A program made the translations under genes and the position numbers. Positions 152 through 64,000 of a stretch of 64,000 nucleotides of DNA are shown in pieces. Numbering within the stretch: the stretch's first letter is position 1; every line of letters begins with the position of its first letter. This stretch comes from Camelus ferus (lineage: Eukaryota). The notes beneath the pieces were generated by a model that did not search any database, was not told where the DNA came from, and was given only the letters and a program-made list of their open reading frames with translations. Where the stretch lies: NCBI RefSeq assembly GCF_009834535.1, contig NC_045696.1, positions 1,800,001 through 1,864,000 of the forward strand, given 5' to 3'.

Positions 152-288
152 GGTTGGCTTTCTAGTTTTCAGGGGGCCTGGTAATTAGGCTTATTTATTT
201 ACTTTTTTTGATGGAGGTACCGAGGGTTGAACCCAGGACCTTGTAACGCACGCCAGGCACGTGCTCTACCCCTGAGCTATGTCCTCCC
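152..288 (-). mobile_element. tRNA(Ala)-derived SINE (camelid Vic-1-like)
   Basis: Reverse complement GGGAGGACATAGCTCAGGGGTAGAGCAC...GGTCCTGGGTTCAACCCTCGGTACCTCCA with A/B boxes. Tail AAATAAATAAGCCTAATTACC. Degenerate AATAAAAGC... target-site duplication on both sides. Confidence 0.8.
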
Positions 289-357: not shown

Positions 358-18629
<18,272 letters not shown>

Positions 18630-28249: not shown

Positions 28250-37033
<8,784 letters not shown>

Positions 37034-37295
37034 CTCTGGGCGGGGCTGCCAGGCCCTCCTCCCAGGACCCTGTGCTGAAGGCCAGCATCTTCCCGAGCAC
37101 CTGGGGGTTGGAGGCACAGCCGTGGCCTCGCCCCAGCACACGGGGCTGCGTCCTCAGGCAGCAGAGCTCTCGCTGTGGACGGGGGCCGCGGGGAAGGCAG
37201 GTGCCAGTGGGCGGACCCGCCCCTGTGCCCTCCTTGGCGGCAGGGCCCACCTTGCCGTGGCCTCCCTGAAGGGGGACTTGGCGGCCACTCTCCGT

Positions 37296-37301
37296 AATAA
37301 A
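37296..37301 (+). terminator. CFAP410 polyadenylation signal AATAAA
   Basis: AATAAA about 260 nt after the stop codon, followed by GT/T-rich sequence. Confidence 0.7.
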
Positions 37302-40300
37302 TGTTTTCCCAAAGTCTGATTTGGAAGCAGACGTTTCCCAAATGCCAGGCGGGGCCTGGACGTTCCTGGTAAAGGGGAGAGCCGTCGCTCAGGCGTGTTT
37401 TCTGTGTCAGTTCTCTGGCTCGGCCACGGGATGGATGTCTGTGGACTGTGGGAGGCTCCCAAAACAACGTCAGCCTTAGGGACAGGCTGCCTGCCACCTC
37501 TGGGGGCGTTCTGTCTCCCTTTTTGGGAGCCCAGCACGACGCAGAGGGTCTGCGCTGCCCATGTGTGAGAAGGTTCAGACGGACAGGCCGCGCTTCTGCC
37601 TGGGGACCCAGGTATGGCCACGGGAGAAGCAGCTGCGTGGGAAAGGACAGCCTTCCAGAGACTGTCCCACGTTTCTTCCTTTAGGAAGAGTCGCAGCCTT
37701 GCCGTGGTGCCCAGGTTGTGGGCGGTGACCCCCCCGTGCCCCAGCAGAAGGGGAGGAGGGTGACCTGCGAGCCGCTTGGGGAGGGCCGCTCCTGCTGGGT
37801 TGGACGGCGGGGCCTGTGGCAGAGCGGGTGTCTCTCCACCCCCTCGCCCTGCCGTCGGGGAGCGTCTGTGTCCGGCAAGGGCATGTCAGGTGTGTGAGGG
37901 CTGCACAGACCCAAGGGGGACTGACCACAGCGTGCCAAGGAGCCAGGGGCAGAGGCGCCTGGGAGCCCACCAGCGGCTGGGTGGAGAAGCACTCCTCCTG
38001 GGGCAGCCGTCACGAGGTGGAAGGTAGTCGCAGACCGGCCTCGTGGGAACCCCGGGGAAGGCAGTGCGCCACCTGTGGGGCCCTTCGAGGTCTCAGGGCA
38101 GGGGGCAAGCTCCCACGGCGGGAAGAGGGGACGTCCCACTCGGGGCACCTTTGGCAAGCAGCCGCCAGCCCCGTGCACAGGCCTTCTCCTGTAATTGTGG
38201 GGTCCAGACACTCTCAGTGAAGCCCGTCTTGCTGTGAATGAGTCGGGGGTGGTGATGTTGCGTCAACACCCTCCCCCTCCCCACCCACTGGGCACAGCTC
38301 GCATCCACCTCCCCCCGCCCCATGACCTGGGGCGCCTCCATCCGGGACCCTTGAACTGGACCCCTGATGGGGTGACCTGCCCACCTCAGCCCCTTGCCTC
38401 CACCCCACCCTCCGCCTTCACCACTCCCTCCCCAGAGTCTCCAGCCACCTTGCTGGTTCCGCTCCCACCTGCCTGCTCTCCCGGTGCCCCTTTGAAGCCT
38501 TCAGGCTGAACGAGAACAGTACACCCAGATCCGGCCTGGCCTGGATCCCGGGGCCTCCAGTCTTTTAACAGGGTCGCGTCGCAATCCCTGCTCTGACCGT
38601 CCCCCCAGGTGACCCTGGAGGCGGGGTTCCCCAGCAGAGTGGGCGCTGGCAGTACACCCGTGTGTGTGTGTTCTCTTGGCCCGAGACCCAGGGCACGTCG
38701 CTCAGCTGAAATGCTGGTCGGTGCAGCCAGAGGCGAGCCAGACGTGTCCTGTTCTCCCTACGAAGCTGCTGCCTAGGAACAAGGGTGTCGCTCTGTCTCA
38801 GGCCACACCGGCAGGTCACCCGGGCCAGCAGCCAGTGTGCTGCCCTGCAGGATGCAGCACTCATCTGGTCCTGACCTGACGTGGGGCACTGAGTGGGCCA
38901 GGCCACAGCATGACCACAGCCAGGAGGTGGGAGGTGGCCGCTGCCCCTTCACTGGAGCCTCCCACGTGCCCAGCTGCTGGGTGGGTGGGGACCCCAACCC
39001 TGAGCCACAGACCCTCCTCTCTGCCCCGACCCCCAGGTCAGGAGGTGAGCTCCGAGCCCGGGGAGAGGCACAGCGCAGTGCCCTCTGGGGTGACGTTCAG
39101 GAGGGGCTGGGGGGAAGGAGCCTTCTGGTGGGGGGAGGTGCTTGCTCATCTCCCCCGTGCCCAGGGCCGCCCTGTTTGCAGGAGGACACGGGAACTTCTG
39201 ATGGTCACCCCTCGGGAAACATTCGTGGGGGTCCCCGTCCCCAGAGGGGGCTGTGGTGTGCTCACAGGCTCCCTGTGGGGGTTCTTGAATCAAATCACTT
39301 CGGAAATTAGAGAAGAAACAAGGAATCTTTGCAGCCAGGTTTCTCCGAAGACAGTGGTTCTCCACAACTCTGGGAGTGGACCCGGGATTCAGTGTCTTCC
39401 TGGGGAGCCTGCGGTTCCAAAGGCCCCACAGGGCACGGGAACACAGGGTACACTGAGCAGGATGCCACTGTGGCGATCACCCAGCCCAGCTAGGAGTGGA
39501 CACTCACGGTGGCCTCACTGAGTGAGATGTGGGCCACGCGTTCACCCTCCCAGCAAAGGGACTGGTTTGCTGGCCTGTGCAGGCCCGCATGAGGGTCAGG
39601 CCTGCCTGCACCCCTGTGCCCCTGTGGCCCGCCCAGCCAGCCAGGACGGCGGGCACACAGGACCCTGCACTCGGTCTAGCCCCGCTGTCCCTGTCCTGAG
39701 TTCACCCTTGTTCAACAAGGGACCTGGTCTCTGGGAAGTCGGCATCCTTCTGCTCCTGCAGGCTGTCACTTTTTGTTAGGAGGAAATATCCTTTCTACAT
39801 AAACGGGCAAAAGCTGCCAGTAAGAGCACCACGGGAGGGAGGGGGGCGGCCATAGCTTCCCCCACGCCGTCCACAGGGACTGGCAGGCAAGGCAGAGTCG
39901 GAAAACACAAACCTGTGACTCCCAGCCTGGCCAGGGGTGCAGTGTCTGTGTCAGCCAGCCCTCAGGATGTCAACAGGTAGGAAAGCTGAAACATTGTCAC
40001 TGCACTGCCCCCATGCGGCCGATGGGTGAGGCTGCAAAGTGAGCACCCCAACACGTGAGCTCCCCTCACTGGACCATCCGACTGAGGCAAACGTGCTGCG
40101 TGAGGCTTTGATGTCCCCTGGCCGGGCTGTCGGGGGCTGGGACCGTGTCTGAGGGGCTCCCCCCCCACATTTAGGCCTTCAGGGGTGGGCCCCCACCCCG
40201 CAGTCGTGCTGTGCGTGCACCTGTGCGCTGGAGCCTCTGGGGCAGCCTTCCGGAAATGCTCTCCAGCACCCGCCGAGCCCCGCCGCCAGCAGTACAGGAA

Positions 40301-43070
40301 AGGGCTCCAATTAAACTGACCGCGCAAGCGTCTGCTTGGGTGTGTGCTGCTCAGGGTTCCATCACCCCCATAAGACGACTCCTGGGCGGCGTTCCCTGCA
40401 AAGCTCACAGAAATAGCAGTGTTTTCCAGGGCCTGAAATTGGAGCCTTCGCTTGGTGAGACAACGCGAGGACTGAGACGGAAAACATGCATCTGTGGTCG
40501 GCCTGCCCTGGCTGCATCCCTAGTGGACACCAGGCTTGGAGCGGGCCCTAGGGCTCGCCCTCCCGCACACGGGGCACGGTGGCTTCAGGGGAGCTGCCCA
40601 TCAGGGCCGCCCTGGGCTTCAAGCGGTCATCAGGGTTGAGAGGGGCTCTGGGTTCAGGTCTTCCTGCTCCTCCCAGCCAGGCGGCCCCAGCCCAGCAGGA
40701 CTGAATGGGGGCTGTAGGAACCGTGGGGTTTGGGCTGCTTCCCAGGGCAGGTGGGATCATTGCCTCTGCTCTCTCGACCACGTATACACCTGGCCAGCTC
40801 TGCAGTGCTCAGCAGACCCCACTCGGCCCCTCCCAGGGTGCTGCCCTGGCCTCAGGCAGCCGGGGAGTGATGCCCAATTCCTGGCTCACCCCATTCCTGG
40901 GCCGGCAGCTCCCCTCCTTCCCCAGCCATGTTCCCTCAGCTGCGCCCTTGGCCTCACACCCCACCCCCACCCTGTTCTGAGAAACTGCTGGGCACATGCT
41001 TTCCTGCAAGTGAGGCTCAGGCTTGTTGTCTGGGGGGGGTGGGATCCCAGGTGGCCCCAAGGTCCTGCTGGACCCCTGGTGTGTACACCCTACGTGAACC
41101 CCACCTTGAGTGGGAGAGGGCAGTCTGTGAACATGAGGGACATGCTGCCTTCTATGGCCAAGGTGAAGGGGTTTCACAGATGTAGTTAAGGCCCCTAATC
41201 AGCTCACTGAGTTAACAAAAGGGAGTGTCATGGTGGGCCTGCCCTAATCAGGTGACCCCAGCCCTCCCTGATAGGCCTCACAGGATCAGGGCTGAGGCAG
41301 CTGAGGGCTCCCCTCCCTGGGCTCAGAGACCTTCTTGCTGCCGTCAGAATTCTGCCAGCAGGAGCTCAGAAGAGCTGAGGTCCAGGTGGGACCACACCCT
41401 TCATTTGGGGAGCCCAGGGGCTGGCTGATAAGAGGAAGCGGTGACAAAGGAGCTGAGCAAGGGTTGGGCCCTGACACCCAGGTCCTCCTGCAGCTGCCAC
41501 AGCCTCTGCCTTGGCCTCCTTGCCACAGGATGGGTGGCTGCTAACACCCTTCCGCCATGTCCCTCTTTCCAGCCTGGGAGGCAGCCTCCTGTGTGCCCAG
41601 TGTGGGCACGCCCCGAGGAGGGCTGCGTGGCCCCGGGAAGGCGGCAGCAGGCCTGGGAGGACATGCCCTAGCTGGCAGAGGCCAGCGAGGGGCTGGGGCC
41701 TGCACTGTTTACCACATCTCCAAACGGCACATTTAAGCAAATCCAGTCCAAAACCCCTGGAAATTTAGCTCCGCCACCTCCTTCCCCAGGCTGGGCATTG
41801 GGTGCCCTGGGAGGGCCTCACCCCAGCACTGCAGGGGTCCAGGGGTACTGGGCAGCACCTGGGCCGGCATGGCATCCTGGCTGGATGTGGATGCGTGGTA
41901 AGGACAGGACACGGTGGTACACGAGACAGGGTCCCTGCCACCCGAGCTCAGCCTCCCAGCCCACGGGAGCGCGCACACACATGCACACGTGGGCTCACAC
42001 GTGCACACGTGGGCTCACACGTGCACAGGGATGCTCACACACAGGCACACACCCAGGTTTCTGGGCCCTGGGAACTGGCCTCTAGTCTCTCCAGAGGCTC
42101 CGCCTCTTGGGGGACTGTCCCTCCTCGGCCTGCCCCAGGACACCCCCCCCATTGCTCGTAGCAGGCAGTGAGACCGCAGGGGCCCAGCTCCAGAAATGGG
42201 CACCCAGGGGCCCCAAGCTCGCAGCAACAGGGTGAGGCTGGCGTGCCCCCAGCGCAGGATCCGCCCCGCCAGGCCTGCTGCCCCCTGGAGTGGCCAAGCT
42301 CCCTGCCAGGGTCTGTGGGGACAAGTGGGCAGCACGAAACGGAGGGAGCCGCCCGGCCAGCCTAGGCCCCACCAGGACACTCCCTTCTCAGGGACCTTCA
42401 ATCGGCCCCATGGATCCCAGAACCTATCCTGACCTCCGCAGGCCCCGAGGGCAGGAATGCAGGCCAGAGCAGCCCTGGACTAAGCGCCTAGGTCCCCAGC
42501 GGGAACAGACGTGGATGCGCAGCCAGCTCTGGGTGACAGGGACCCGCCAGGCGCGGACCACGGGGCTGACATCCAGCTTGTCCTCCCAGGGGCCCTGGTG
42601 TGGGCACCATGCTGCCCCACCCTGGGAACTTCCAAGGGATCAGCCCACAGCCCACAGAGGTGACAAGTTTCTGGCTGCCTCCCCTCCCCTCAACCACCCA
42701 CAGTGTCTCCTGGGACGGTCGCTCCCATTAGCCACCTGCCCCAAGACCCCAGCCCAGGCTGTCTGGGGTAACGTGCCGTGTCAGACTCCAGGCCTGGGAA
42801 CCAGCCTCAGAAAGCCTCCCAAGATGGAGGAAGGACAGGCCTGTCACCCCTCAGGACAGGGCAAGGGGGCTCAGGTCACCATGGCCAGGGTGGGGCTGCT
42901 GGTCCTAGGAGGGGAGTGTGGCCCCAGAAGGCGCATGTCCCTGAGACCCAGCCCAGTCCTGAGGCCAAAGGTGGACCCTAGACCTGTGCGTGTAAGGTGG
43001 GGGCTATCAACCAGCACAGGTTCCGCAGGCCCTGCTCCCGAGTCTGCGAGCACTCCACAGTCGGGGGCAT

Positions 43071-43076
43071 TTTATT
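43071..43076 (-). terminator. PFKL polyadenylation signal AATAAA
   Basis: TTTATT on the + strand, about 375 nt downstream of the PFKL stop codon. Confidence 0.75.
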
Positions 43077-43451
43077 TCTAGAAAAAGTGACAAGCTCTGC
43101 TTAGCCAGTACACCCAGGAGCAGGATCGCAGTGGGGCCCACGGGGCACGACCCCCTTCCCACGTGCACAGAGCCTCCAGCACCAGCCCCCCCACGGCTAA
43201 TGAGGGCATGGACCACATGGGGGCCTGAGGCACTGGGGCAGCAGTGTCCACAGACGCCCCCACATGCCCCTGGACTGGAAGCGGGTGCCCGAGGTCCTCT
43301 GTCCTGGGGGAGAGCTGAGGGGCAGCAGGATGGGACTGGAGCTGTGAGAGCCCGGAGCCAGGCCTGCACGCCGCCCGCCGGCCCCCCGCCTGCCTGCCCG
43401 CAGACCCAGGGAAGGAGGGAGTGGGGAGGCGGACACAGGTGTGGACGCACT

Positions 43452-62358
<18,907 letters not shown>

Positions 62359-62950
62359 CTGCGAGGGAGCAGGGAGACGCCCGTCAGTGGAGACTTGGGG
62401 TGTCGGGGCCCTGGACCTTCGCTCCCCGCATCTCAGGGGACACTGAGCCAGGAGCCCAAGCCCAGCACAGGGCGAACCCCACCCCAGTGTCATTCCAGCT
62501 TCCAAGCATTTGGAAATAAGCTGCCCAGGAAGGTCCCCACCTGGACTGGATTCCTCCAGAGTCTGGAGAACAGGCAGGTGCAAACCTGCCACATTGTGTC
62601 TGGCCTCAGCCTGCCTCGTGCTCACTTGTGGCCCCTGCTGCTCAGCACCACACCCCTCCTACTCCTGTGACCAGACCCTGACCTGGGGGAATCTCAGCAA
62701 GTCGGGTGTACGACCCCAGGATGAAAGAGGAGACAGGTGGGACACAGGGGGCAGCAGCCTTCCAAACCCACCCTCAGCCTCTGCTGGACTCTGGGCCACC
62801 ACACTGGGGGGCAGCTCAGGGGATACCTGAAAGTCAGTGTCCCTTGGCCCTGGGGCCATAAACCCCCTGCCCCACGGCCTGGAGAGTGGCCTTCATAGAA
62901 CAAGGAAGGACAACACCCCCCCCCCTAAGGCTAGGGTCTGGGACTGTTGG

Positions 62951-63500
62951 TGTTGCCGAATATCGTGTTCCAGCTCAGTTGTGAACAGCTACCTGAATCC
63001 AGGCGAGAGACCAAACAGCCCTCGGACAGACGGAGAACTCAGGCTTGTTACACCAAAAGGCCCACAGGAGTTAACACTCCAAGCTCTGGACCCGTCTGTA
63101 GGGTTACACCGGCTTTTATAAGCTGCCAGTTTACACTTTGCAACATCATATGCAAATGAGGTATAAGGAAAGTTGACTAATTAAGAACAAGCTTTGTAGA
63201 AATGGACCAATTAGGAGGGCGAGAAATAACCAATCAGAAGTGAGCTCCATGCAAATGAAGTACTACAAATGGACCAATCAGAAGTTAGGGAAATGAACCA
63301 ATCAGGAGTTAGGGAAATAACTAATCAGGAGTGAAGGAAATAACCAATCAGAAGTGAGCTCAGGGAACCAATAGAATTTTAGGCGTAAGTAAGCCGTTTC
63401 AGAGGCAAAAAGTGAGATACAGCCTCTGAGCCAGGGAACCGGATGGTGCTGGCAGGAGAGTAGTGGCCCTGCCTGTCTTTTTATGGGGCTTCCTGCCTCA
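62951..63500 (-). mobile_element. ERV1-type solo LTR (550 bp) in PFKL intron 1
   Basis: Minus strand runs TGAGGCAGG...CGGCAACA. 4-bp TSD TTGG/CTGG with one mismatch. TATAAAAG at 63120-63113. CCAAT tandem array. Confidence 0.8.
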
Positions 63501-64000
63501 CTGGGGGGGGTCTGGCGGCCTCCGGCAGTCAGCTAAATGGCCTCATGCACACCGGGGCCACCAGGCTCGGGGGTCACCTCGCTTCCTTGACCCCTGGCCC
63601 CAGCCCCTGTCTACAGCAGCTACCCTGCAGTATAGGCTTCCTGGAAAGACAGACAATCGTGGGGCAGGAAGAGAGCGCAGCTCACAAGAAATACTCAAAA
63701 GAGTCCAATGGAACCTCACTCCCGTTTCCTTGCAGGTCAGTTCCCGCGGGCCTGGCCCATAGTAGGGCTCACAAGGCACAACCCGAGGAAGCCCCATGGG
63801 CGGCCCCACGGGGGACAGGTGCACCAGCAGTAGCCCAACGCGGCAGCCCCTGCTGCTGTCTGAGGGTGGGACGGGGCCTCCAGGTGGCCTGACGCGCACA
63901 GCTGCAGCCCCCTCAAGCCCAGAGAATGCTAGGTCAGATACCAGGTCAGATGCCAGGTGGGTGGCCCTGTGCGGGCACCCGGGGCAGGCCCAGCCCCCAC

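What the first reader, a model, noticed from the sequence alone, without database searches (positions are those of the whole stretch)
62951..63500. Sense-oriented solo LTR in PFKL intron 1 built like an alternative promoter (CCAAT array, octamers, TATA, splice donor, decayed polyA signal)
Seen: a 550-bp TG..CA element with a near-perfect 4-bp TSD, in PFKL's orientation, about 590 bp upstream of exon 2. It has six CCAAT boxes (63207, 63230, 63274, 63298, 63344, 63368) plus a CTAAT variant (63321), mostly 23-24 bp apart. It also has two ATGCAAAT octamers (63150, 63249) and an intact TATAAAAG (63120-63113). Where the LTR polyA signal is expected (~63044-63050) the minus strand reads TAACAAG, not AATAAA. 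A donor CAG|GTAGCT lies at 62993/62992. Known: CCAAT binds NF-Y, ATGCAAAT binds POU factors (OCT1/OCT4), and CCAAT-rich LTRs such as primate LTR12 act as alternative promoters. Inference: a ~100-nt LTR exon spliced to exon 2 (which begins GC ATG AAT) would skip exon 1 and start at Met30 in human numbering. The product would be an N-truncated PFKL lacking the TSGGD loop, possibly in germ cells or embryos.
Basis: partly seen in the sequence, partly recalled or inferred. Interest (0 to 1): 0.7.

Follow-up and report, generated by a model that had tools for sequence, protein, structure and literature searches.

The report
Camelid LTR exon spliced into PFKL
An old retroviral remnant inside the camelid gene for a key glycolysis enzyme (PFKL) is spliced onto the gene's second exon in one reproductive-tract RNA sample, so it probably acts as a second, tissue-limited promoter whose message would encode a clipped and most likely inactive enzyme.

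Summary
Observation confirmed and its main prediction met. 62951-63500(-) is a solo LTR of a high-copy family: DNA depth is about 3,000 times the flanks and other copies diverge sharply at 63500. It lies upstream of PFKL exon 2 in a camelid. All stated motifs are in place; they look like family traits, not local inventions. The exact predicted GT-AG junction (62993 to 62358) appears in 1 of 4 runs laid: a reproductive-system RNA run, depth 123 against 15 unspliced. The junction contig carries this copy's own letter in the decayed polyA signal. In that run intron depth falls from about 15 downstream of the LTR to 0-3 upstream, as expected if RNA starts in the LTR. Limits: one contig, 26 letters on the short side, start site not seen, cassette-exon use not excluded, exon 1 outside the window. 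The first AUG would be Met30, which removes the first strand and the Gly25 loop of the catalytic domain, so the product is probably inactive. This is a new member of a known kind (LTR alternative promoters). Four literature searches and four look-ups of this scan's notes found no earlier report.

The parts
62951..63500 (-). Solo LTR, 550 bp, class I (ERV1/gamma-like) by anatomy; member of a high-copy camelid family
   Evidence: ends; DNA-type run X14: depth 35,000-45,000 against 12 in the flanks; 28 contigs diverge at 63500 with agreement 0.38
62947..62950 (+). Target-site duplication, downstream copy
   Evidence: 3 of 4 match with 63501-63504
63501..63504 (+). Target-site duplication, upstream copy
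63207..63372 (-). U3 array of six CCAAT boxes plus one decayed box (63321) in ~23-bp tandem units
   Evidence: other copies read an intact box at 63321 (table 3)
63150..63157 (-). Octamer 1 (POU-type site; binding not tested)
63249..63256 (-). Octamer 2
63113..63120 (-). TATA box, with a TGTAA motif upstream at 63135-63131
   Evidence: RNA-to-DNA depth ratio of the family rises about 6-fold downstream of this box
62993..63090 (-). Inferred LTR-derived first exon (R plus part of U5), about 100 nt, no ATG. 3' end shown, 5' end inferred
   Evidence: junction in X2; the same contig reaches at least 63044-63047; no ATG in 63120-62993
63044..63049 (-). Decayed polyadenylation hexamer; most other copies carry the canonical signal here
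   Evidence: table 3 (X14: 728.5 of 747.8 depth differ at 63044, 692.2 of 747.8 at 63047); this copy's letter is held by the local contigs of X2 and X6
63031..63033 (-). R/U5 border: polyA site used by other copies of the family
   Evidence: table 7: 7 raw reads of X21 with T-run loose ends at 63032 (agreement 0.62; reads from other copies)
62987..62995 (-). U5 splice donor CAG|GTAGCT; weak, but the best donor inside the LTR
   Evidence: score 4.1; PFKL's own 20 donors score 2.5-11.8; best of 31 GT sites in the LTR; used in X2
62359..62992 (-). 634-nt GT-AG intron between the LTR exon and PFKL exon 2
   Evidence: table 5: joint 62357-62992, skips 634, CT..AC (cut +1), depth 123.2, 1 contig, X2 only
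62285..62358 (-). PFKL exon 2; Met30 ATG at 62356-62354
59281..59358 (-). PFKL exon 3 (used as the expression yardstick)

Best explanation
A class I endogenous-retrovirus solo LTR sits in sense orientation 593 bp upstream of PFKL exon 2 in camelids and works as a tissue-restricted alternative promoter and first exon. (1, shown) The LTR is a fixed or common insertion of a high-copy family. (2, inferred) Its inherited CCAAT/octamer array and TATA box start RNA at about 63090 in cells where the family is active. (3, sequence shown, effect inferred) In other copies RNA ends at about 63032; this copy's polyA hexamer has decayed, so RNA runs on 39 nt to a U5 donor. The same decay would spare normal PFKL transcripts from being cut short, which may be why a sense insertion was tolerated. 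(4, shown in one run) The donor splices to exon 2. (5, inferred) The first AUG is Met30, giving a 751-aa protein without strand 17-22 and the Ser23-Gly25 loop, most likely inactive or unstable. The net effect is probably neutral or a mild dampening of PFKL, not a working new enzyme.
For: Junction at the exact predicted bases with GT-AG ends in X2, depth 123.2 against 15.5 for the unspliced contig, absent from DNA-type run X14. At 63044, X2 depth carrying the window's letter is 679.8 minus 556.6 = 123.2, the same contig, so the LTR side comes from this copy. The X2 intron contig starts at 62332 and the X6 one at 62331, the one-base shift expected if an exon ending in CAG competes at this acceptor in X2 only (table 8; inference from 31-letter words). 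The X2 bin over exon 2 (30.7) is fully explained by the junction plus the intron contig (30.67). X2 intron depth is 14.7-15.5 downstream of the LTR and 0-3.3 upstream; X6 12-20 and 28; X14 12.2 and 12.7. Family RNA/DNA ratio is about 6 times higher downstream of the TATA box in both RNA contig runs (0.91 vs 0.15; 0.12 vs 0.02). No good acceptor between TATA and donor (scores 0.2 or lower; 17 of 20 real acceptors score 6 or more). Pfam PFK starts at residue 18; strand E17-22 in the model; S23 and G25 nearly invariant in 32 sequences.
Against: One contig in one run of one study; X6 (another reproductive-system study) and X21 show no junction; 4 of 24 listed runs were laid. The short side is 26 letters, under the tool's 31-letter rule for bridging; the tool marks 'between: not known', and 4 letters fit either side. 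No start site was seen (table 6 empty; contigs cannot show starts or strand). The positive control, the exon 2-3 joint, is not listed in any RNA run (human-like records are filtered; 6 joints hidden), so absences and the upstream hole in X2 are weak. The exon 1-exon 2 junction could not be measured. The only exact camelid Met30-start protein on record is one alpaca model, and such forms are also annotated in bats and rodents, so it is no support. No protein evidence.
Confidence: 0.7

Rival explanations
1. The LTR piece is an internal cassette exon of the normal transcript (exon 1 to an LTR acceptor, then the U5 donor to exon 2), acting as a poison exon, not a promoter.
For: A junction alone cannot tell a first exon from a cassette. 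Three fair acceptors lie in 5' U3 (63423, 63425, 63448; scores 3.7-6.5). Of the 26 AG sites in the LTR only one gives an open in-frame cassette (45 nt, too short for the junction contig), so cassette use would shift the frame or add a stop. Early removal of the upstream intron could also give the depth step in X2.
Against: X2 depth with the window's letter is below 123 at 8 of 10 listed U3-side positions, though assemblers drop rare variants, as seen even in X14. Acceptors near the R region are poor. Family RNA rises downstream of the TATA box. A decay target at 7-34% of exon 3 depth would be unusual.
Confidence: 0.15
2. The junction is an artefact: reverse-transcriptase template switching at a 4-letter match, or an assembly chimera between an expressed family copy and exon 2.
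For: 4 letters fit both sides; a single contig; 26-letter short side; heavy family RNA in X2.
Against: Canonical GT-AG at a donor predicted before the data were seen; 8 times deeper than the unspliced form; carries this copy's own letter at 63044; a CAG|G match is normal for splice sites; the independent depth step and contig-start shift agree.
Confidence: 0.07
3. The LTR promoter is a selected, regulated switch whose short protein or transcription has a job in the reproductive tract, such as a dominant-negative or scaffold subunit, or interference with the normal promoter.
For: High junction level and few upstream-intron contigs in X2; two changes in the polyA hexamer; LTR present in all 3 contig runs laid; precedents Dicer1-O and Cdk2ap1-deltaN.
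Against: The lost piece is core fold, not a dispensable N-terminal arm: 19 of 19 solved chains matched keep at least 15 residues before this Met. This copy is about 5-10% diverged from other copies, so two changes in a hexamer need no selection. It has also lost one CCAAT box.
Confidence: 0.12

Closest known systems
Mouse Dicer1 MTC solo LTR (Dicer1-O), and ERVL/MaLR 'promoter plus first exon' platforms (PMC5538554, passages read)
   Same: Intronic sense solo LTR supplies promoter and splice donor near its 3' end and yields an N-truncated host protein; that paper also notes sense intronic inserts are under-represented.
   Different: Those are class III LTRs of rodents; this one is class I-like by anatomy and camelid. 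Dicer1-O is an active enzyme with a shown role; here the cut removes catalytic core and no function is shown.
Mouse MT2B2 promoter of Cdk2ap1-deltaN (10.1101/2021.03.24.436683, abstract read)
   Same: A species-specific LTR drives an isoform that starts at a downstream AUG.
   Different: That LTR is essential and the isoform is conserved across mammals; neither is shown here.
Human ERV9 LTR12 (PMC11853044, passages read)
   Same: U3 built of tandem repeats carrying CCAAT boxes; acts as alternative promoter.
   Different: LTR12 has 5-17 units of about 41 nt with GATA and MZF1 motifs and a weak or atypical TATA, and is a human ERV family. Here the units are about 23 nt with octamers and a canonical TATA. 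Analogy only; no sequence comparison was possible.
Pig PERV LTRs (PMC10968565, passages read)
   Same: Gamma-type LTRs of an artiodactyl with NF-Y CCAAT boxes and listed Oct-1 sites.
   Different: No sequence relationship tested; this element is an old solo LTR.
ALK-ATI (LTR16B2) and ENTPD1 (MER39B) (PMC11007075, passages read)
   Same: Solo LTR gives the start and part of a first exon, changing the N-terminus.
   Different: Human genes; no PFKL or camelid case in the passages read.

Membership tests
ERV solo LTR | TG...CA ends | tested here: met
   3' end reads ...CAACA, close to the pattern in PMC3601003
ERV solo LTR | Interspersed multi-copy repeat with sharp ends | tested here: met
   about 3,000-fold DNA depth (not a copy number); 28 contigs diverge at 63500; single-copy depth on both flanks
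ERV solo LTR | U3-R-U5 order: TATA, then polyA signal and site | tested here: met
   TATA 63120-13; hexamer position 63049-44; T-run loose ends at 63032 in other copies
ERV solo LTR | Target-site duplication | tested here: inconclusive
   3 of 4 match, 5% by chance; no empty site seen, as all three contig runs hold the LTR
Class I (ERV1/gamma-like) ERV | 4-bp duplication, R of about 60-70 nt, TGTAA upstream of TATA | tested here: inconclusive
   All three fit, but the 4-bp rule is recalled and none is diagnostic alone
Class I (ERV1/gamma-like) ERV | Internal pol phylogeny, primer site, or a Dfam/Repbase match | not testable with these tools
   No genome held; two metagenome scans gave no true copy
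LTR12/ERV9 | About 41-nt U3 repeats in a human ERV9 element | tested here: not met
   Units are 23 nt; host is a camelid
LTR-derived alternative promoter / first exon | Spliced RNA from the LTR into a host exon | tested here: met
   run X2 only; one contig, 26 letters on the short side
LTR-derived alternative promoter / first exon | Transcription start inside the LTR | tested here: inconclusive
   Indirect only: depth step and R-side enrichment; no start site seen
LTR-derived alternative promoter / first exon | Promoter activity or factor binding shown directly | not testable with these tools
   Needs CAGE, chromatin or reporter data
Exapted LTR with a host function | Stable product and a phenotype on loss | not testable with these tools
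   No protein data; folding models too weak to judge

The most novel reading that the evidence does not exclude
In a camelid reproductive tissue the LTR takes over much of PFKL transcription and makes a catalytically dead subunit lacking 29 residues. [quoted passage not shown]
Probability: 0.12. Interest if true: 0.78.

Novelty: new member of a known kind. Interest (0 to 1): 0.5.

Why it matters
LTR-driven first exons are well known, but nearly all studied cases are in human and mouse. This one is in a core glycolytic enzyme of a livestock lineage, was predicted from sequence alone, and was then found at the exact bases in public RNA. It makes two things testable: whether decay of an LTR's polyA signal turns a harmful sense-oriented intronic insertion into a working promoter, and whether camelid reproductive tissue uses a truncated PFKL message to tune glycolysis. 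If the product is simply degraded, the case is a modest addition to the catalogue.

Tried and rejected
No whole genome is held, so copy number, family name and full-length relatives could not be obtained. No other copy lies in the window. Metagenome scans: 0 hits and 2 hits that match only the 20-letter pattern, i.e. chance. The alpaca 751-aa model XP_031536712.1 was rejected as support: it is labelled isoform X1, which would fit an annotation lacking exon 1 (inference), and Met30-start forms also occur in other mammals (7 among the 120 proteins, counted; more 751-aa forms). AlphaFold models of the full and cut proteins were both low in confidence (pLDDT 57.9 and 55.4); only the local strand call was used. 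Run X21 (1 in 100 of a single-cell run) had no read at 99% or more and no depth on the PFKL exons, so it says nothing about this locus. The first splice-score run had 2 donors and 3 acceptors misplaced and was redone; only scores are used, and the matrix rests on 20 sites. No in-frame ATG extends the reading frame into the LTR exon; the three ATGs upstream of the TATA all stop inside the LTR. The PFKL structure paper (PMC11345425, passages) has no occurrence of G25 or Gly25, so that residue's ATP contact is recalled. Scan notes: 0 near, 1 other LTR note in this genome, 0 by sequence, none on PFKL by words.

Full report
Observation. Six CCAAT boxes compare with 1.27 expected in 2000 shuffles, and two octamers were reached in 0 of 2000. 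The boxes sit in a 23-bp tandem array, so they are not independent events. The flanking duplication matches at 3 of 4 places, which has a 5% chance for fixed ends. The exon 593 bp downstream translates identically to human PFKL residues 30-53. Exon 1 is not in the window, so 'intron 1' rests on homologues, whose proteins have 29 residues before this Met.

Host. Exon 4 is 100% identical to a dromedary PFKL, and one 780-aa protein is shared by four accessions filed under Camelidae. The window is therefore from a camelid; I did not fix the species. No whole genome is held.

It is a real LTR. I searched RNA runs with 62975-63125 (24 runs listed, 20 holding part of it, 10 studies) and laid 4 of them on 59260-64000. 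In X14, which behaves as DNA (flat depth of 12 through exons; its kind is not on record), depth over the element is 35,000-45,000, about 3,000 times the flanks (the tool warns this is no copy number). 28 contigs diverge at 63500 into unrelated flanks. Of 2,224 records laid, 921 are 90-95% alike and 657 are 95-99% alike, so this copy is old; with recalled mammalian rates that suggests some 10-30 million years. Contigs bridging 62951 show the LTR at this site in all three contig runs (X2, X6, X14), whose long flank contigs differ from the window by about 0.2-0.4%. In X21, 7 raw reads from other copies end in T-runs at 63032, which places the family polyA site about 12 nt after the hexamer. Most other copies carry the canonical hexamer there; this copy differs at two places. 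Other copies also read an intact box at the CTAAT site. None of the listed differences falls in the six CCAAT cores, the octamers or the TATA (131 rows were hidden), so the promoter build looks inherited. The anatomy (4-bp duplication, recalled rule; R of about 60 nt; TGTAA upstream of TATA; PMC3601003 passages) fits class I. Camelid genomes hold many ERV1 elements (PMC8605555 passages), but the family could not be named.

The predicted splice exists in one run. Table 5 lists a joint 62357-62992 skipping 634 bases with CT..AC ends at cut +1. On the minus strand this is a GT-AG intron from 62992 to 62359, exactly the predicted junction. It is in X2 (RNA-Seq, labelled reproductive system) at depth 123.2, against 15.5 for the unspliced contig, and in 0 of the other 3 runs. 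Four checks support it. First, at 63044 the X2 depth carrying the window's letter is exactly 123.2, so the junction contig holds this copy's decayed hexamer and does not come from another copy. Second, the X2 bin over exon 2 is fully explained by that contig and the intron contig (30.67 computed, 30.7 seen). Third, the X2 intron contig starts at 62332 and the X6 one at 62331, the shift expected when an exon ending in CAG competes at the acceptor. Fourth, intron depth in X2 is about 15 downstream of the LTR and 0-3.3 upstream, whereas X6 has 12-20 and 28 and X14 has 12.2 and 12.7. Family RNA relative to DNA is about 6 times higher downstream of the TATA in both RNA contig runs. The junction is 7-34% of exon 3 depth, depending on which exon 3 contigs passed the filter.

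Limits. This is one contig in one study. Contigs show no start or strand. The exon 2-3 joint, my positive control, is not listed in any RNA run, probably because human-like records are removed, so absences are weak and exon 1 use could not be measured. X21 was uninformative for this locus.

First exon or cassette. The donor is weak (4.1; PFKL's 20 donors score 2.5-11.8; rank 11 of 97 GT sites in the stretch) but the best of 31 in the LTR. Acceptors between the TATA and the donor score 0.2 or lower. Fair acceptors lie only in 5' U3 and would give exons of 431-456 nt with stops. A first exon is more likely, but a poison cassette is not excluded.

Product. There is no ATG between the TATA and the donor, and the ATGs further upstream stop inside the LTR, so the first AUG is Met30, with G at -3. 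The Pfam PFK domain begins at residue 18, a strand is modelled at 17-22 (low overall confidence), S23 and G25 are nearly invariant, and all 19 solved chains matched keep at least 15 residues before this Met. By offset Gly25 equals bacterial Gly11, an ATP-site residue (recalled; not found in the passages of PMC11345425). The 751-aa form is thus probably inactive or unstable. The exact camelid 751-aa sequence exists only as one alpaca model, which I do not count as support.

Comparison. It works like the mouse Dicer1 MTC and Cdk2ap1 MT2B2 promoters and has a CCAAT-repeat U3 like LTR12 and PERV, but it fails the LTR12 repeat test and has no shown function. Searches for PFKL with 'alternative promoter' and LTR (0 papers), retrotransposon and 'chimeric transcript', 'alternative first exon' and camel with 'retrovir' gave nothing relevant by title (2 listings each, not opened). 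The library lacks most subscription journals, and no supplements were read.

Verdict. Real solo LTR, about 0.97; junction real and local, about 0.9; start inside the LTR, about 0.75-0.8; selected function, about 0.12. New member of a known kind; interest 0.5.

Noticed in passing
window 57056-57052 (-), PFKL exon 7: The reading frame shifts by one base at residue 231 against the intact camelid protein P0122 (exon is 110 nt). Probably an error in the window's sequence; no reads were laid there.
   Followed up: partly
window 14196-14290 (+), 16857-16940 (+), 212-287 (-): tRNA-like short elements. ARAGORN calls two of them tRNA genes; the first two look like the camelid Vic-1 SINE (name recalled), so these calls may be SINEs.
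   Followed up: no
window about 12450-15230 (+): A-rich, low-GC stretch that looks like rearranged L1 fragments ending in a polyA signal, with a GAAG run at 13308-13374 (L1 identity by eye).
   Followed up: no
window 62951-63500, other copies of the family: The family itself seems transcribed and polyadenylated: R-side enrichment in X2 and X6, T-run ends at 63032 in X21. DNA contigs show U3 repeat-number variation among copies (tables 5 and 7).
   Followed up: partly
window 63553-64000 against 61168-62916, run X6: Intron depth drops from 28 upstream of the LTR to 12-13 downstream, the opposite of X2. This may be the normal fall along an intron or some termination within the LTR.
   Followed up: no
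P0124, P0087 (human PFKL models): Human PFKL also has annotated forms with a different N-terminus joined just before Met30, so this acceptor takes alternative upstream exons in other lineages.
   Followed up: no
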